A stretch of 64,000 nt of DNA, from NCBI RefSeq assembly GCF_013122565.1, contig NZ_CP053258.1. The stretch is one strand, 5' to 3'. Shown here one piece after another: positions 14,877 to 23,017 of this stretch (positions are counted from its first letter, which is position 1; each line of letters begins with the position of its first letter). The DNA is from Escherichia coli. Its GTDB lineage: Bacteria; Pseudomonadota; Gammaproteobacteria; Enterobacterales; Enterobacteriaceae. Below the pieces are notes generated by a model that searched no databases, was not told the origin of the DNA, and saw nothing but the letters and a program-made list of their open reading frames with translations. Made by a program: the position numbers and the translations under genes.

Positions 14877-15947
14877 TTACTCCCCGACGCGCTCATTAAT
14901 TGCCTGCGGATTGTACGTGATAAACATCGCATCACCGTAACTAAAAAAGCGATATTTCTCTTCTACCGCTGCTTTATAGGCGTTCATGGTGTGTTGATAA
15001 CCGGCAAAGGCCGAAACCAGCATAATCAGCGTCGATTCCGGCAGGTGGAAGTTTGTCACCAGCGCATCGACCACTTTGTACTGGAAGCCCGGATAGATAA
15101 AGATTTGGGTATCGTCAAAGAACGGTTCGATGAGATCGTTTTTCGCCGCCTGAGCCGCGCTTTCCAGCGAACGTACTGAGGTGGTACCAACCGCAATCAC
15201 CCGGTTACCGCGCGCTTTCGCCGCCAGTACCGCGTCTACCACATCCTGGGGTACTTCAGCGTATTCCGAGTGCATGATGTGATCTTCAATGGTGTCGACG
15301 CGTACCGGCTGGAAGGTGCCCGCACCAACGTGCAGGGTGACGAACGCCATCTCCACGCCTTTGGCGCGTAATTTTTCCAGCAAAGGTTCGTCAAAATGCA
15401 GACCAGCGGTCGGGGCTGCAACCGCGCCCGGTTTTTCGCTATAAACGGTTTGATAAAGTTCGCGGTCAGCGTCTTCGTCCGGACGGTCGATATACGGCGG
15501 CAGCGGCATATGGCCGATGCTGTTGAGAATATCCAGCACCGAGCGTTCATCATTAAATTCGACTTCAAACAGTGCGCCGTGGCGCGCGGTCATTGTTGCG
15601 TTAATACTTTCGTCATCGCCCAGCAGCAGTTCTGCGCCAGGTTTTGGCGCTTTCGAGGCGCGAATATGCGCAAGAATGCGTTTGTCGTCGAGCATCCGCT
15701 CAACCAGCACTTCAATCTTGCCGCCGCTGGCTTTACGCCCAAACAGACGCGCCGGGATCACGCGGGTATTATTAAAAACCAGAAGATCGCCGGGGTTGAG
15801 CTTATCGAGTAAATCGGTGAAAGTACCGTGCGTCAGCGCGCCCGTCGACCCGTCCAGCGACAGTAAACGACAGCTACTGCGTTCAGGCATCGGATAGTGG
15901 GCAATCAGGGATTCGGGCAATTCAAAGGAGAAATCGGTAACGCGCAT
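14877..15947 (-). CDS. queA: S-adenosylmethionine:tRNA ribosyltransferase-isomerase
   Basis: 356-aa [36 protein letters not shown]..., matching QueA. Confidence 0.95.
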
Positions 15948-16039
15948 GACACTGACTCAGACTAAAATAAGAGGCGGGTAGTCTAGTGCCGGGGCGCTCT
16001 CCCTGCAACCTTTACCCCCCTTTGGATAGAATATAATCG

Positions 16040-16621
16040 ATGAATTTTTTAGCTCACCTGCATTTAGCCCATCTCGCGGAAAGCTCGCTTTCCGGCAATT
16101 TACTGGCTGATTTCGTACGCGGAAATCCTGAAGAAAGTTTTCCGCCCGACGTCGTGGCTGGCATTCATATGCATCGGCGCATTGATGTACTAACCGACAA
16201 TCTGCCGGAAGTCCGCGAAGCACGGGAATGGTTTCGTAGTGAAACGCGCCGCGTTGCGCCTATTACCCTGGATGTCATGTGGGATCACTTTCTTTCCCGC
16301 CACTGGTCGCAGCTGTCGCCGGACTTTCCGCTACAGGAATTTGTCTGTTATGCCCGCGAGCAAGTGATGACGATTTTGCCGGACTCACCACCACGCTTTA
16401 TCAACCTGAACAACTACTTATGGTCAGAGCAGTGGCTGGTGCGCTATCGCGATATGGATTTCATCCAGAACGTGTTAAACGGCATGGCAAGCCGCCGCCC
16501 ACGTCTGGATGCCCTGCGTGACTCCTGGTACGATTTAGACGCTCATTATGCCGCCCTCGAAACCCGCTTCTGGCAGTTTTATCCGCGGATGATGGCGCAG
16601 GCGTCACGCAAGGCGCTCTGA
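16040..16621 (+). CDS. acpH: acyl carrier protein phosphodiesterase
   Basis: 193-aa [35 protein letters not shown]..., matching AcpH (YajB). Confidence 0.9.
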
Positions 16622-16732
16622 AACTTCAAACTCCGGCGTCACTATTTTTTAGCATTCGCATCCAGCGGGGCGGCATAACAACGGTAAGAAAAATATTCGC
16701 TGGAGTGATTGGCGATATCTTTAAAATTGCTT

Positions 16733-18088
16733 TCACCAACCCCCCCCGTACGTGAGTACCGTTCTGGACAACTCTCCGTTTTCATTTATATGTGGAAAAT
16801 CATATTGTGTACTGAATCGCCATACATCTTTCTTTTCTGGCTCGCTGTTCACAGAGATACGTCGATGGAAGGTCCCTCCTATAAACGTGCGCCAGAACAA
16901 TTGTTGATCAAAATCTTGTAATATCGCAGACTTGGATGCTATTTGACGTAGTAAACCTGCATACCGTGGACTGCCATTACGAGCAACATTATGCAAACCC
17001 TGACTAAAAGCATCAAACAAACAATAGGTGTGATCACTAGTGAAAAAAGGTCTTAATTTTTTTTGTTCTTCATCGCTGTAATCCAGGAGCATCTCATTGA
17101 TTTCTTCCGGTGAGAATTTTAAGACAAAATTATCCTCAGAATTTGTTTGTTTCTTGTTTTTTTCAATATTCTTCTCCTCAATGCTCTTCGCATTTTGTTT
17201 CGCAATTATTTCCTCAGTTTTTTTCTCAATTACTTCCGCAATTTTTTCCCGAGTTTTAAATTTTAAACTAACACCATCGATGTCAACCGGTGTTGTTTTC
17301 AGATCTCTCTGCGCGTCTTCCAAATTTGTCTTATAGAGTTTGTGCAGTTTATCTGCAGATACGTATCCGGATGAAGAAATCTGGTGTGTACGCATGGGGG
17401 GCTGTTCACAAAGCATCGAAGCTATATCGTCTTTAAACTCTTTTACATTAAAGTTATCGGCATTAACCTTCCTTGTTATAAACCCCGCATCGGCAATTTT
17501 CTTCTCTAATTGTTTTGTACGTTTAGAATAATAAGCGTTGTTATCATAAAACTTTTCAAGAAGGGCCCACTCCTCAAGTTGCCTTATGTGATTTTTCAAC
17601 TGTTGATGATCTATTTTATATTCATGTGTACTAGAATCATTTTGGTTGCAGGAGTTACAGATTTTTAAGCATAATTTTCCATCAGATTTATCATCTATGG
17701 TATCAGTGAAAATATAGGACACTTCAATACTCTGCCCGTTCTTATCAGTCATCTCATATGACCATTGCCCCGTTCGTTTCGCATTCTTAATGACTTCGAT
17801 CGACTCTACAGGACAACCATGAAGAATGGGCAGAATTTTATCAGGATGCTTAATGAGTAAAATTATTATATTTACAATGTTTGAAAAGAAATTTTTGCTA
17901 TTTTTTATTTCATCGATTTTTTCCGCTGAAATGTTTACTAAGTTTTCATTTCCGGAAATGAAAAGCGATTTGCCATAGGTGCTTTTTTTAAATTGTTCTT
18001 CTGTTTTAGAAAAGACATCCTCTTTAAAAGGTGGCAACTCAGCACCAGTAATAAACGGTTTCAATAAATTCGAATTTGAAATTGTCAT
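16733..18088 (-). CDS. hypothetical protein, 451 aa, AT-rich strain-specific insertion
   Basis: Long uninterrupted ORF in a markedly AT-rich segment between acpH and malZ; predicted N-terminal domain, central K/E-rich coiled-coil, and a W/F/Y-rich C-terminal domain; no motif I can assign to a family. Confidence 0.6.
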   Translation of the reverse strand: MTISNSNLLKPFITGAELPPFKEDVFSKTEEQFKKSTYGKSLFISGNENLVNISAEKIDEIKNSKNFFSNIVNIIILLIKHPDKILPILHGCPVESIEVIKNAKRTGQWSYEMTDKNGQSIEVSYIFTDTIDDKSDGKLCLKICNSCNQNDSSTHEYKIDHQQLKNHIRQLEEWALLEKFYDNNAYYSKRTKQLEKKIADAGFITRKVNADNFNVKEFKDDIASMLCEQPPMRTHQISSSGYVSADKLHKLYKTNLEDAQRDLKTTPVDIDGVSLKFKTREKIAEVIEKKTEEIIAKQNAKSIEEKNIEKNKKQTNSEDNFVLKFSPEEINEMLLDYSDEEQKKLRPFFTSDHTYCLFDAFSQGLHNVARNGSPRYAGLLRQIASKSAILQDFDQQLFWRTFIGGTFHRRISVNSEPEKKDVWRFSTQYDFPHINENGELSRTVLTYGGGW

Positions 18089-18194
18089 ATCTTTGCTCCA
18101 CTACAGGGTTATCCTGGAGCAGGTTGTACCTAACCTCTTGGGCAAAGAATACCAAAAATCGCTCATATCGATCGGGACAAATATTTAACAAACT

Positions 18195-18242
18195 CAGCCC
18201 TGACATTGAGCAGCTTTTTTGCGCTGCGTAGTGTCAGGGCTG
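18195..18242 (-). terminator. nested inverted repeat, candidate malZ terminator at the insertion boundary
   Basis: 11-bp arms CAGCCCTGACA / TGTCAGGGCTG enclosing a second hairpin GCAGC-TTTTTT-GCGCTGC; lies 3' of malZ and 5' of the 451-aa ORF. Confidence 0.4.
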
Positions 18243-18275
18243 GTGACTAACGACGTAACAAATAAAACAGATGCT

Positions 18276-20090
18276 TTAGTTCATCCATACCGTAGCCGAA
18301 ATGGCAGGCAAAGCCAGAATCCCGTCTGTCAGTTGCCCATGGCCTTCTTTGCGTTGCCATTGCACGACATTAAGAAACGGTGACGCGGGTAGCACCACTT
18401 CACAGGCCTCGCCACGGTTGATTGCCACCAGTACACGCTGTTGATTCTGCACGCGGACAAATACCACCACGTTATCTTCCGCATACAGCACCTGACAGCC
18501 ACCACGACGCAGCGCCTGACTTTTCTTACGCAGCGCAATCATTCGCTGGTACAGCGCGAATAACGCCATATCCTGCTTTTCCACCTGCCAGGGGAACGGC
18601 TTACGGCAAAACGGATCGTTTTTGCCATCCAGTCCCACTTCATCACCGTAATAAATGCACGGTACACCAGGCCAGGTGAACAGCCAGACCACCGCCAGGG
18701 GCAGGCGCGCAACATCCCGACCGAGCAACGTTTTAAATCGCGCAGTATCGTGGCTGTCGAGCTGATTAAACATACGTAATTGCTGTTGATGAGAAAGCCC
18801 TGCGCGGTAATTATCCATCCAGGCCATACAGGTTTGGGCGTCAATTTGCTGCGGATCGTAAGAGATGTCGGTATTGGCAAGAAATCCCCACAACGGGAAT
18901 GTGAAGCCGCGATAGTTCATGGCGGCATCTTCCACATCGGCCTGTAACCATTGCCGTGCATCGCCAAAATGCTCTCCAACTATATACGCTTCCGGCTGGG
19001 TTTCTTTCGCCGCTTCGGTGATCCCGGCAACGTGCTGCAAATTATTGCGCGCCCCCCCCGCTTCCCCCAGCATATGCACCACATCCAGCCGCCAGCCGTC
19101 CATATTCCACGGCGCTTTCAGCCAGTGGCGGACAATACTGTCTTCCCCGCGATAAATTTCATTCACCAGACTTTCCGACTGATAATCCAGCTTCGGCAAG
19201 CTGGCATAGCCCAGCCAGTCGAGCGCCGTGCCATCGTCACTAAACGAGTACCAGTCGCGCCAGGGCGATTCGGGGTTGTGACAAGCACCCCCCGTGCCAC
19301 GATTGTGCCTGTCAAACCAGGCATGGGAATCGCCACTGTGGTTAAACACGCCATCCAGCACCAGCCGCATTCCCAGCTGCTGCGTATTGTGGCGTAAGCG
19401 CAGCAACGCCCCATCACCGCCAAACTGCGGATCGACATGGCGATAATCCTCGGTATCGTATTTATGTACGCTGGGAGCTTTAAACACCGGATTGAGATAC
19501 AGCGCCGTCACGCCAAGTTTTTTCAGATACGGTAGTTTTTCGCTTATCCCGTCCAGATCGCCGCCATAGAACGTTGATCCGCCCGCCTGCGCCGTGACCG
19601 GTTCATCCCAGTCACGCAAGATGATCTCTTGTCCGGCTGCGTGATGGTAATAGACATGATCCTGTTCAGCTTCACGAGGAAGACTACGGGCGAAACGATC
19701 AGGGAAGATCTGATAAAAAATCTGATCCGCTGCCCATTGTGGGCCGATATCCGGTACATCGATGGCAAACTGCTCCAGTCGTGCTGGCGGCATTCGGCTG
19801 AAGCCCTGCGGTGTAAACCAACGCTGGCGATCGTGCCATAGCAATTTGAAACTATAACGCCGCCGGGGTTGTCCACTGGAGAGATCGATCGCCGCCCGCC
19901 ATGCGGTGACACCAGGCTGCGGCTGACTGCGCTGCTTATGCATCGGTACTGACATTTCTTCGTTATCGTGTTCTGTACGCAGCATAATGCGCTGCGGTGG
20001 GTCTTCGCCCGTCAGCCACAGTGTAATGAGCAGTTGATCTTTGCTTTGTTTAACAAATGGGGGCACCGGCAGGTGCCATGCATTTAACAT
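18276..20090 (-). CDS. malZ: maltodextrin glucosidase
   Basis: Track ORF starts [15 protein letters not shown]...; the second Met is used as start here, giving 604 aa; GH13 alpha-amylase family. Confidence 0.9.
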
Positions 20091-20248
20091 CATAATTCCC
20101 CTGTGATGAAAATCTGATCACCTTGCCATAGCCTAATGCAGGATCACTCATCATCTGAAGGATATTTGGGGGAGGAGGACGGGGGCGGATAACTTTCGGA
20201 ATAGCCGGATCAGGATTTCCTCCTGAACCGGCTTACAGAACGCAAGTA

Positions 20249-21622
20249 TTACTGGTTTTCAGCCAGCTGACGATCGTGGCGGCGTTTAAACATCCAGCCA
20301 ATCAACAGCACAACAATCCACGCGAAACCGACATACAGCGAGATACGCGTATCCGGGTGATAACCAATCAACCCGATAATAAAGAGCAGGAAAATCAGCC
20401 CGCCGATGGTCGTTGCTACCCCACCCGGCACTTTAAATTTCAGCGCCTTAACTTCTTCTGGCGGCAAACGGCGACGGAAGGCGATTTGCGACAGCAGGAT
20501 CATAATCCACACCCACACCGTGGCGAAGGTTGCCAGCGAAGCGATCACCAGGAAGACGTTTTCCGGCATGATATAGTTCAGATACACCGCAAACAGCAGC
20601 GCGGTAGTCATCACCAGCACCGTAACCCACGGAATACCGCGACGCGACGTTTTGCTGAAAATTTTCGGCGCGCTGCCCTGCTCTGCCATACCGTGGAGCA
20701 TACGGCCTACGCCAAATACATCACTGTTAATTGCCGACAGCGAAGCAGTCAGCACAACAAAGTTAAGAATGCTGGCGGCAAAGGTAATGCCCATATGCTG
20801 GAACGTCAGCACGAACGGGCTACCGGCAGTGCCAACCTGATTCCACGGGTAGATAGACATAATGACAAACAGCGTACCGACGTAGAACACCAGAATACGC
20901 ATCGGCACGGAGTTAATCGCACGCGGTATCGATTTCTCAGGATCTTTCGCTTCACCGGCGGTAATCCCGATAATTTCGATCCCACCGTAAGCAAACATCA
21001 CCATTTGTAACGACATCACCATCCCAAGCCAGCCGTTACTGAAGAAGCCGCCGTTGCTCCACAAGTTATGAATACCGGTCGGTTGCCCGCCGTTGCCAAT
21101 CCCCCAGATGATGATGCCGAAACCGGCGACAATCATGATGATGATGGTGGCGACTTTAAAGAACGAGAACCAGAATTCCAGCTCACCGAATACCTTCACG
21201 CTCATCAGGTTTACGGCGCAAATGATCAGCACCACGCTCAGTACCCAAATCCAGTGCGGCACCGTCGGGAACCAGACACCCATATAGATACCAAAAGCGG
21301 TCACATCGGCGATGGCGACAATTAGGATTTCAAAGCAGTAGGTCCAGCCGGTAATGTAACCTGCCAGCGGGCCGAGGTTTTCCTGCGCATAACGTGAAAA
21401 AGAGCTGGCGGCCGGGTTATGTACCGACATTTCCCCCAGCGCGCGCATAATGATATACGCCGCGATACCACCGATAATATAGGCCAACAACACGCTCGGA
21501 CCGGCCATTTTGATGGCGTCTGCCGAACCGTAAAACAACCCGGTGCCAATTGCTGAACCCAGTGCCATAAAGCGTATGTGGCGGGTACTTAGCCCACGCT
21601 TTAGCTTGTTCTTACTTTCCAT
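20249..21622 (-). CDS. proY: APC-family amino acid permease ProY
   Basis: Track ORF starts [31 protein letters not shown]; the second Met is used as start, giving 457 aa. Confidence 0.9.
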
Positions 21623-21697
21623 CAATTCCTAACCCATCAACACAATAAAAAACCACGGGGCATCGCAGCCCCGTGGTTAAAACAAATGTTCAGTGAT

Positions 21698-23017
21698 TTA
21701 GTGAGCGCTGGAGGTCACCTGACGACCTGCCGCGCGATCCCAGATAATGGCCAGAACCACCATCACCACTGTTGGCATTAACCACGCCAGACCTTGTTCG
21801 GCCAGCGGTAAACGCTGCGCCCAGGACGGTAAGATATCGCTGAATGCAGATGCTTTGATCCCGTCGAGAATACCAAAAAGCAGGCTGATAAACATCGGCG
21901 GAGCAATCACGCGGGACGAATTATGCCACCATGAGCGTGTAAAACTTAATACAACCAGTGCGATACACGGCGGATAAATAGCGGTCAGCACCGGTACGGA
22001 GATCTGAATCAGCTGGCTCAAGCCGAGGTTAGACACCACCATCGAGAAGCCGCCGAGGATAAACACCAGCGTACGATAAGAGAGCGGTACGTACTGGGCA
22101 AAGAATTCTGCACAAGCACAGGTCAGGCCAACTGCCGTTACCAGGCAGGCGATGAAGATTAACGCCGCCAGCAGGAAGCTACCGCCGCCGCCAAAGGTGT
22201 GCTGAACGTAAGCATGCAGAATCGCCGCGCCGTTTGCAGACTGATCGACCAGCGACGCGCTGTCTGAACCCAGACGGAACAGCGCCAGGTACAGCAGAGT
22301 CAGACCAACACCCGCCATCAGGCCAGCCCAGACGGTATAACGGGTCAGCAGACGCGCTTCGGTAACGCCACGAGAACGCGCCGCGTTAACAATAACGATA
22401 CCAAACACCATTGCGCCCAGCGTATCCATGGTCAGATAGCCGTTAACGAAGCCGTTAGAAAACGCAGCGTTTTGATAAGCCTCAGTCGCCGTGCTGATAG
22501 AACCCGCCGGCCAGACAATCGCGGCAACAGACAGGATGACCAGCGCGATAATTTTCAGCGGCGCAAGGAAGTTGCCCACGGTATCCAGCAGCTTGCCCGG
22601 ATAGAGCGAAACCAGAATAACGATAGCGAAATAGACCAGGCTGTAGATAAACAGCGGCAGTGCGGAATCACCCGTCAGCGGCGCAATCCCCACTTCAAAA
22701 GAAACGGTAGCTGTACGCGGCGTAGCGAAAAGCGGCCCCACCGCCAGGTAACACACCGTTGCCAGCAGTACGCCAGCGACTTTACCGATTGGCGTGCTGA
22801 GGCTGTCAACACCGCCGCCAACTTTTGCCAGCGCCACTACCGTTAATACCGGCAGGCCAACGGCAGTAATGAGGAAGCCGAATGCCGCAGTCCAGACGTG
22901 TTCGCCTGCCTGCAAGCCGACCATTGGAGGGAAAATAATGTTACCTGCGCCGACGAACAACGCAAATGTCATAAAGCCCAGAGCGATGATATCGCGCGAT
23001 CTTAATTGATGGGTCAT
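21698..23017 (-). CDS. brnQ: branched-chain amino acid transport system 2 carrier BrnQ
   Basis: 439-aa [45 protein letters not shown], matching BrnQ. Confidence 0.9.

What the first reader, a model, noticed from the sequence alone, without database searches (positions are those of the whole stretch)
18100..18275. Nested palindromes at the boundary between malZ and the 451-aa insertion
An 11-bp-arm inverted repeat (CAGCCCTGACA/TGTCAGGGCTG) encloses a second small hairpin with a T6 tract. It could be the malZ terminator, the promoter/operator of the inserted gene, or a scar marking the insertion junction.
Basis: seen in the sequence. Interest (0 to 1): 0.3.

Follow-up and report, generated by a model that had tools for sequence, protein, structure and literature searches.

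The report
Terminator-like hairpin of an orphan-gene islet
The nested palindrome is a real, very stable hairpin that arrived as part of a 1.66-kb orphan-gene segment found between malZ and acpH in about a fifth of E. coli genomes; it most likely ends or protects the malZ transcript, which is an ordinary kind of element.

Summary
Perfect 11-nt arms lie at 18195-18205 and 18232-18242. They enclose a 5-bp inner hairpin with a T6-containing loop. As RNA the hairpin folds at -31.7 kcal/mol on the malZ-sense strand (z = -6.5).

It is not the ancestral malZ terminator. E. coli genomes without the insertion, and the other Escherichia species sampled, have only 4 bp between the convergent acpH and malZ stop codons. 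The palindrome segment occurs in exactly the 1126 of 5426 complete E. coli genomes that carry the insertion, once each. It was never found elsewhere in a genome, on a genuine plasmid, or in phage or viral contigs.

The hairpin lies 30-33 nt inside the right end of the insert (16616 to about 18272), 33 nt after the malZ stop and about 106 nt upstream of the orphan ORF's ATG. On the malZ strand it is followed by AGUUUGUUAAAUAUUU. The insert has no terminal repeats or target duplication, and Rfam gives no match.

Best reading: an imported intrinsic-terminator-like or 3'-end-protecting hairpin that separates malZ from the orphan gene (ECs_0454 in Sakai). Its function is inferred, not shown. The insert is too little diverged for conservation of the stem to count as evidence.

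The ORF is an Escherichia-only orphan with dN/dS near 1, an internal 12-nt repeat array, and a frameshift in this window. Interest is low.

The parts
18195..18242 (-). Nested hairpin. Outer arms are 18195-18205 and 18232-18242 (11 perfect pairs). Two further pairs, 18192-18193 with 18243-18244, form across a bulged A at 18194. There are 4x4-nt internal loops at 18206-18209 and 18228-18231. The inner 5-bp stem is 18210-18214 with 18223-18227, and the apical loop is 18215-18222 (GCAAAAAA on the minus strand).
   Evidence: alleles compared
18177..18194 (-). U-rich tail directly 3' of the hairpin on the malZ-sense strand (AGUUUGUUAAAUAUUUGU). Five of the 8 bases starting 2 nt after the stem are U. 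The plus-strand side of the hairpin has no T run (GTGACTAACGACG).
   Evidence: sequence read directly
18243..18275 (-). Proximal malZ 3'UTR between the malZ stop codon and the hairpin. Positions up to about 18272 are insertion-specific. The right junction lies at about 18272-18275, immediately next to the malZ stop codon (TTA at 18276-18278 on the plus strand).
16616..18272 (.). The 1.66-kb accessory segment, present in 1126 of 5426 complete E. coli genomes. It replaces the ancestral TTATAA + 4-nt spacer. Its first six bases, CTC TGA, re-create the last Leu codon and the stop codon of acpH. G+C is about 30-40%, against about 55% in the flanks.
16733..18088 (-). Orphan ORF, 451 aa here. Intact alleles are 469-493 aa and end at the stop codon at 16642-16644. 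The Sakai homologue is ECs_0454 / NP_308481.1, annotated as a hypothetical protein. The window copy is frameshifted at the C8 tract (16740-16747).
18089..18176 (-). Region between the hairpin tail and the ATG. It holds a candidate extended -10 (TG at 18154-18153, TATTCT at 18151-18146) and the Shine-Dalgarno GGAG (18099-18096). A weak predicted stem pairs UCUUUGC with GCAAAGA across the Shine-Dalgarno region (z = -1.65, not significant).
18276..20093 (-). malZ (maltodextrin glucosidase), the gene whose transcript would run into the hairpin.
16040..16621 (+). acpH (ACP phosphodiesterase), convergent with the orphan ORF. Its last two codons are supplied by the insert.

Best explanation
The palindrome belongs to a 1.66-kb horizontally acquired single-gene segment: hairpin, weak promoter region, then an Escherichia-specific orphan ORF. 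This segment replaced the 4-bp spacer between the convergent malZ and acpH genes in some E. coli lineages.

When transcribed from the malZ strand, the palindrome forms a very stable composite stem-loop followed by a moderately U-rich tract. It most likely acts as an intrinsic-terminator-like hairpin, a 3'-end-protecting hairpin, or both. In that role it ends malZ transcripts about 85-100 nt after the stop codon and insulates the AT-rich orphan gene from malZ read-through.

Shown: it exists, it is stable, it is confined to the insertion, it is single-copy, it sits 33 nt after the malZ stop, its tail is strand-asymmetric, and the stem is kept in the most divergent alleles sampled.

Inferred: that RNA polymerase terminates there, or that the hairpin blocks 3' exonucleases.
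For: 1. The hairpin folds at -31.7 kcal/mol on the malZ-sense RNA (z = -6.5; 0 of 200 shuffles as good).
2. It starts 33 nt after the malZ stop on the same strand. The tail AGUUUGUUAAAUAUUU has 5 U in the 8 bases that start 2 nt after the stem. The opposite strand has no U run, so any termination would be directional, for malZ.
3. It is absent from every empty-site genome and present once in each of the 1126 insertion-bearing genomes. Twenty-nine metagenomic copies all lie in the same malZ-hairpin-ORF-acpH context.
4. In empty-site strains malZ and acpH are 4 bp apart, and no terminator-like site was found downstream of malZ. MG1655 malZ-acpH is listed as a convergent excludon with overlapping transcripts (PMC12288877). 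The insert therefore supplies a structure the ancestral arrangement lacked.
5. Among the most divergent alleles sampled, 21 of 22 arm positions are invariant. Substitutions and indels fall in the apical and internal loops (A5-A7 run, with or without GC).
6. The rival readings lack support: no Rfam family, no terminal repeats or target duplication, and a single copy per genome.
Against: The generic terminator scan did not call it, because the 26-nt interior exceeds the scan's loop limit. The U tract is interrupted (UUUGUU) and weaker than in textbook terminators, so efficiency could be low.

The whole insert is only about 3% diverged, with about 8% variable columns. One variable arm column out of 22 is therefore not significantly fewer than neutral expectation (about 1.8). 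No compensatory pair changes exist. Conservation gives no independent support.

No 3'-end mapping data could be accessed. The Sakai Term-seq paper has no supplements held in the library.
Confidence: 0.55

Rival explanations
1. Functionless passenger. The hairpin is a relic, for example the terminator of whatever gene lay upstream of the orphan ORF in the unknown donor, or simply a neutral palindrome. It is carried along with a young, near-neutrally evolving insert and has no selected role in E. coli.
For: The insert evolves as if unconstrained. ORF dN/dS is about 1.0, against 0.03 for acpH and 0.08 for malZ. Diversity is uniform at about 3% across the ORF and the intergenic region. Conservation of the stem is statistically indistinguishable from the neutral expectation. 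One allele (19KM1831) carries a stem-breaking substitution. The window's ORF is itself frameshifted.
Against: A -32 kcal/mol hairpin followed by U residues on a transcribed strand will affect RNA polymerase or exonucleases whether or not it is selected. 'Relic' and 'works as a terminator' are therefore not mutually exclusive. Indels in the alleles fall only in the loop.
Confidence: 0.25
2. Recombination site or insertion scar. The hairpin is the cis-acting end of a mobile unit (attC-like, IS200/IS605-like or MITE-like) that directed the insertion exactly between the two stop codons.
For: The insertion is strikingly precise. It lies between convergent stop codons 4 bp apart, with acpH's last codon and stop re-created. 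The hairpin lies close to one end, 30-33 nt in. As ssDNA it is also stable (-18 kcal/mol, z = -4.6).
Against: The hairpin is not at the junction. The other end has no partner structure, and there are no terminal inverted repeats or target-site duplication. The insert encodes no transposase or integrase. Its only ORF matches no Pfam, NCBIfam or PADLOC family above threshold. There is one copy per genome, always at this locus, with none in phage or viral contigs and only two hits in the plasmid collection, both in 4.9-Mb records that look like mislabelled chromosomes. On the plus strand ATTTAAC precedes the hairpin, but no GTTRRRY-type partner follows it (read; the attC consensus is from memory).
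Confidence: 0.07
3. Operator or protein-binding palindrome that controls the orphan gene's promoter.
For: It has perfect dyad symmetry upstream of the ORF. One relaxed sigma-70 candidate has its -35 (ATGTCA, starting at 18206) overlapping the hairpin's 3' arm, with AATATT 15 nt downstream.
Against: The dyad centre is about 130 nt upstream of the ATG. The half-sites are 11 nt long and separated by 26 nt that themselves form a hairpin, which is unlike typical operators. No regulator gene lies in or beside the insert. The strict promoter scan finds nothing there. The better promoter candidate (extended -10 at 18154-18146) lies about 40 nt downstream of the hairpin.
Confidence: 0.06
4. The malZ 3'UTR plus the hairpin is processed into a 3'UTR-derived small regulatory RNA.
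For: A roughly 90-nt 3'UTR ending in a strong hairpin with U residues is the usual architecture of 3'UTR-derived sRNAs. The whole intergenic RNA folds better than shuffles (z = -4.4).
Against: There is no Rfam match at E <= 1. The U tail is short and interrupted, which is poor for Hfq binding. No mention of this intergenic region was found in the Sakai studies searched.
Confidence: 0.05

Closest known systems
Rho-independent (intrinsic) transcription terminators of E. coli
   Same: It has a G+C-rich stem base (CAGCCCUG/CAGGGCUG). It lies 33 nt downstream of a stop codon on the same strand and is followed by a U-rich stretch. The tail is directional.
   Different: The stem-loop is a long composite one (13 pairs, a 4x4 internal loop, 5 pairs, an 8-nt loop; 53 nt in all) rather than a short 5-12-bp stem with a 3-8-nt loop. 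The U tract is interrupted (UUUGUU). The generic scan does not call it.
mRNA 3'-end stabilising hairpins such as REP/BIME elements (for example in the malE-malF intergenic region; from established knowledge)
   Same: It is a stable extragenic palindrome downstream of a gene, and it could block 3'-to-5' exonucleases.
   Different: It is single-copy (one per genome), whereas REP elements occur in hundreds of copies with a shared consensus. No similar sequence was found anywhere else.
Small strain-specific 'O-islets' of E. coli O157:H7 (single-gene, low-G+C insertions relative to K-12; general knowledge from the EDL933/Sakai genome comparisons)
   Same: It is a low-G+C 1.66-kb segment holding one hypothetical gene (ECs_0454). 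It is absent from K-12-like genomes, lacks mobility genes and sits between conserved backbone genes.
   Different: This comparison concerns the hairpin's context rather than the hairpin itself. The junctions here are unusually tight, falling inside the last two codons of acpH and at the stop codon of malZ.

Membership tests
Intrinsic (Rho-independent) terminator | Stable G+C-rich stem-loop in the nascent RNA | tested here: met
   The hairpin folds at -31.7 kcal/mol with z = -6.5, and the base of the stem is CAGCCCUG/CAGGGCUG.
Intrinsic (Rho-independent) terminator | Compact hairpin with a short loop of about 3-8 nt | tested here: not met
   The outer arms enclose 26 nt, which fold into an inner 5-bp hairpin with 4x4 internal loops. 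The generic scan therefore did not report it.
Intrinsic (Rho-independent) terminator | U-rich tract immediately 3' of the stem | tested here: inconclusive
   The tail is AGUUUGUUAAAUAUUU, with 5 U in the 8 nt that start 2 nt after the stem. This meets the scan's tail criterion, but the tract is interrupted.
Intrinsic (Rho-independent) terminator | Located downstream of a gene in the sense orientation | tested here: met
   It starts 33 nt after the malZ stop codon, on the malZ strand.
Intrinsic (Rho-independent) terminator | Mapped RNA 3' ends at the U tract | not testable with these tools
   The Sakai Term-seq paper (PMC7547250) has no supplements held in the library.
REP/BIME and other repetitive extragenic palindromes | Many copies per genome sharing a consensus | tested here: not met
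   There is one copy in the window even with 3 mismatches allowed. There is exactly one place per genome in 1126 genomes and none in the other 4300.
Transposable element or MITE end | Terminal inverted repeats and a target-site duplication flanking the inserted segment | tested here: not met
   No repeat links the two ends of 16580-18300. The junction sequences show a replacement of about 7-10 nt, not a duplication.
Integron attC recombination site | Imperfect palindrome bounded by inverse core sites (RYYYAAC ... GTTRRRY), located 3' of the cassette ORF (consensus from memory) | tested here: not met
   ATTTAAC is present 5' of the hairpin on the plus strand, but no GTTRRRY follows it. The hairpin lies 5' of the ORF, and there is no integrase or cassette array.
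Described RNA families (Rfam 15) | Covariance-model match | tested here: not met
   There were 0 matches at E <= 1 over 16500-18500 on both strands.
Transcription-factor operator | Dyad overlapping or adjacent to the regulated promoter, with a cognate regulator | tested here: inconclusive
   Only a weak candidate promoter overlaps the 3' arm. No regulator gene is nearby. Binding cannot be tested with these tools.

The most novel reading that the evidence does not exclude
The hairpin could be the cis-acting structure through which a single-gene cassette was inserted, possibly as single-stranded DNA, exactly between two convergent stop codons. That would be an unrecognised structure-directed integration route for orphan genes in E. 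coli. On this reading the same segment may have been captured at this site more than once, which could explain why its neutral divergence (about 0.03) is several-fold lower than the synonymous divergence of the immediately flanking genes (about 0.17).
Probability: 0.04. Interest if true: 0.6.

Novelty: new member of a known kind. Interest (0 to 1): 0.15.

Why it matters
The hairpin itself matters little. It is an ordinary-looking terminator or insulator hairpin that had not been described individually.

Its context has modest interest. It shows how a foreign single-gene segment can be wedged between two convergent genes only 4 bp apart without damaging either one, since acpH's last codon and stop are re-created. 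It also brings its own transcript-ending structure to a place where the ancestral genes overlap transcriptionally.

For annotation, the practical outcome is that in insertion-bearing strains (O157:H7 and many others) the malZ 3' end is predicted about 85-100 nt after the stop codon. ECs_0454 should then be treated as a separate transcription unit that is probably weakly expressed.

Tried and rejected
1. Ancestral malZ terminator: rejected. Empty-site E. coli, E. albertii and two cryptic-clade Escherichia species have a 4-bp spacer and no palindrome.

2. Repeat family (REP-like): rejected because the element is single-copy.

3. Mobile-element end: no terminal inverted repeats or target duplication. 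No phage or viral-contig hits, and the only two plasmid-collection hits are in 4.9-Mb records that look like mislabelled chromosomes.

4. Donor search: the AcpH-anchored scan of 80 species found no ORF, no hairpin and no matching acpH 3' end. The metagenome scan with the arm pattern returned 29 copies of the same E. coli locus. It also returned 23 unrelated palindromes that share only the 11-mers.

5. Function of the ORF: there were no Pfam, NCBIfam or PADLOC matches above threshold. Among 1.84 billion representative proteins, the only hits were fragments of the same family plus one marginal match (E = 8e-4). The AlphaFold model was unusable (mean pLDDT 35.9), so no fold search was run.

6. 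Covariation test of the stem: not informative, because the alleles are 96-99% identical and show no double changes.

7. Literature: nothing for ECs0454 or Z0502. The Sakai Term-seq supplements are not held. The Sakai intergenic Ribo-seq supplements have nothing for this region.

8. Rfam: no match.

Full report
OBSERVATION

CAGCCCTGACA (18195-18205) and TGTCAGGGCTG (18232-18242) are perfect 11-nt arms. Inside them, GCAGC (18210-18214) and GCTGC (18223-18227) pair around the loop TTTTTTGC.

The two flanking genes, malZ (18276-20093) and the 451-aa ORF (16733-18088), are both on the minus strand. The relevant transcript is therefore the reverse complement. On that strand the element folds as 13 outer pairs (11 plus 2 across a bulged A), a 4x4 internal loop, 5 inner pairs and an 8-nt loop. 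The energy is -31.7 kcal/mol, with z = -6.5 against 200 dinucleotide shuffles. The plus-strand RNA (-37.5 kcal/mol, z = -6.3) and the ssDNA (-18 kcal/mol, z = -4.6) are equally non-random. The 48-mer is unique in the window.

WHERE IT BELONGS

The interval 15900-18700 matched 5424 of 5426 complete E. coli genomes, but only 1126 of them cover at least 80% of it. The rest cover 41%, because they lack the middle.

In empty-site genomes the stop codons of the convergent acpH and malZ genes are 4 bp apart. Alignment places the left junction after AAGGCG (16615). Empty sites continue TTA TAA, whereas filled sites continue CTC TGA. The insert therefore re-creates acpH's terminal Leu codon and stop. 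The right junction lies at about 18272-18275, directly against the malZ stop codon.

The hairpin thus lies 30-33 nt inside insertion-specific DNA. A 126-nt query around it finds exactly 1126 genomes, one place each, all chromosomal.

POLARITY

An AcpH-anchored scan of one genome per species returned 80 loci. E. albertii, two unnamed Escherichia species and the E. coli representative all have the 4-bp junction. None of the 80 loci encodes the ORF or carries the hairpin. Other genera hold unrelated material between acpH and malZ, or have no malZ within the 4-kb flank fetched.

The empty state is therefore ancestral, and the 1.66-kb low-G+C segment is a gain within E. coli.

No donor was found. 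The insert has no meaningful BLAST hit in those 80 loci. The ORF has no phage hit, and its only 'plasmid' hits are two 4.9-Mb records that look like mislabelled chromosomes. The arm pattern has no hit in viral contigs. In metagenomes it recovers 29 copies of the same E. coli locus, plus 23 unrelated palindromes that share only the 11-mers. No terminal inverted repeats or target-site duplication join the ends of the insert.

WHAT THE HAIRPIN PROBABLY DOES

On the malZ-sense strand the hairpin starts 33 nt after the stop codon and is followed by AGUUUGUUAAAUAUUUGU. On the other strand it is followed by GUGACUAACGACG. That asymmetry, the G+C-rich stem base and the position fit an intrinsic-terminator-like or 3'-end-protecting hairpin for malZ transcripts.

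The generic terminator scan missed it, because the 26-nt interior exceeds the scan's loop limit. The tail does meet the scan's criterion of 5 T in 8, but it is interrupted, so efficiency is uncertain.

In empty-site strains no terminator-like site follows malZ. MG1655 malZ-acpH is listed among convergent excludons with overlapping transcripts (PMC12288877). The insert therefore appears to bring its own transcript-ending structure.

Downstream of the hairpin there are only weak promoter candidates: an extended -10 (TGgTATTCT, 18154-18146) and a 15-nt-spaced pair whose -35 overlaps the 3' arm. A good Shine-Dalgarno sequence (GGAG, 18099-18096) precedes the ATG. Rfam has no match.

HOW STRONG IS THE EVIDENCE FOR SELECTION ON THE STEM?

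It is weak. I fetched the most divergent hairpin-region alleles in the 1126-genome set (96.0-98.4% identity to the window) plus one O157:H7 allele. In these six alleles and the window, 21 of 22 arm positions are invariant. Changes and indels fall in the loops: an A5-A7 run, with or without GC, and two internal-loop substitutions. One strain has a stem-breaking C>A change.

The whole insert has only about 8% variable columns, so about 1.8 variable arm columns are expected by chance, and 1 was observed. No compensatory changes exist. Conservation therefore neither supports nor contradicts a function.

THE CARGO

The ORF (ECs_0454 / NP_308481.1 in Sakai) is an orphan. All 120 listed hits (of 379) in the 5.8-billion-sequence search that carry a source name are Escherichia proteins. 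A full HMMER scan of 1.84 billion representative proteins found only fragments of the same family, plus one marginal hit. There are no Pfam, NCBIfam or PADLOC matches above threshold. The AlphaFold model is unusable (pLDDT 36).

Alleles differ in length in 4-aa steps (469-493 aa), because of a 12-nt repeat array at 17189-17249. The window's copy is frameshifted at a C8 tract (16740-16747), where O157 has C5TC. That gives 451 aa with a novel tail.

Across seven alleles the ORF has dN = dS = 0.03 (ratio about 1.0). acpH and the 3' part of malZ have dN/dS of 0.03 and 0.08, with dS of 0.17-0.18. Per-site diversity is flat across the junctions.

So the insert is several-fold younger than the coalescence of its flanks, and it evolves with no net constraint on the protein. 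No paper in the library mentions the gene.

VERDICT

The hairpin is insertion-borne. It is not the ancestral terminator, a repeat element or a junction scar.

Its most likely role is that of an imported terminator or 3'-stabiliser that separates malZ from a weakly expressed, possibly decaying orphan gene. The terminator role is inferred from anatomy only. This is an ordinary kind of element, and interest is low.

Noticed in passing
window 16733-18088 (and L002, L006-L010): The orphan ORF has dN = dS = 0.03, a ratio of about 1.0 (0.63 over the N-terminal 200 codons, 1.26 over the C-terminal 236). acpH (0.03) and malZ (0.08) have dS of 0.17-0.18. The insert is several-fold less diverged at neutral sites than its immediate flanks, and the protein shows no net purifying selection.
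   Followed up: partly
window 17189-17249: A 12-nt (4-aa) tandem repeat array lies inside the ORF, encoding IAEK/IAKK/TEEK-like units. Copy-number differences explain the allele lengths of 469, 473, 477, 481, 485, 489 and 493 aa seen in the protein search.
   Followed up: partly
window 16740-16747: This is a C8 homopolymer (G8 on the coding strand), where O157:H7 has C5TC. The extra base frameshifts the window's ORF. The last 36 residues of the 481-aa protein are replaced by a 6-residue tail (YGGGW ending), giving 451 aa. It could be real decay, slippage or a sequencing error.
   Followed up: partly
window 16610-16621: The insert's first six bases, CTC TGA, replace the ancestral TTA TAA. acpH therefore keeps the same C-terminal Leu and a stop codon despite the breakpoint lying inside the gene. 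In intact alleles the ORF's stop codon (16642-16644) is only 20 nt from the acpH stop.
   Followed up: yes
window 17943-17964: A perfect 22-nt palindrome with no spacer (TTTTCATTTCC/GGAAATGAAAA) lies inside the N-terminal coding part of the orphan ORF.
   Followed up: no
L005 (E. coli DCM188-6, NZ_CP136396.1): This strain lacks malZ altogether. acpH is followed directly by proY, about 265 bp away.
   Followed up: no
L003 (E. coli EC2001) and hit H29: An extra 126 bp or so sits in the queA-acpH intergenic region. acpH starts at locus position 567 instead of 441. This is a second small indel polymorphism next to the site.
   Followed up: no
L010 (E. coli AST85): Its malZ 3' part is 7.7-8.3% diverged from the six other alleles and its acpH is 5.0-7.1% diverged, yet its insert is only 2.8-4.0% diverged. 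This suggests mosaic recombination around the locus.
   Followed up: no
L015-L090 (other Enterobacteriaceae): The acpH-malZ interval differs between genera. The gaps run from 12 bp to more than 3.5 kb, or malZ is not within the 4 kb fetched. The spot appears to be a recurrent site of gene-content change.
   Followed up: no
L110, L111, L134, L137; L100, L102, L109, L117, L132 (metagenome contigs): These are unrelated palindromes that share the same 11-nt arms. One group has two identical copies 169 bp apart. Another group shares the inner sequence GATGCGGAGACTTGACTCCCACCTC. Neither group resembles the E. coli intergenic region otherwise.
   Followed up: no
window 20249-23017 and 15900-18700: The best identity of the window to any complete E. 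coli genome is 99.2% for proY-brnQ and 97.7% for the acpH-malZ interval. The source is therefore an E. coli/Shigella-grade lineage that is not closely represented in the complete-genome set.
   Followed up: partly
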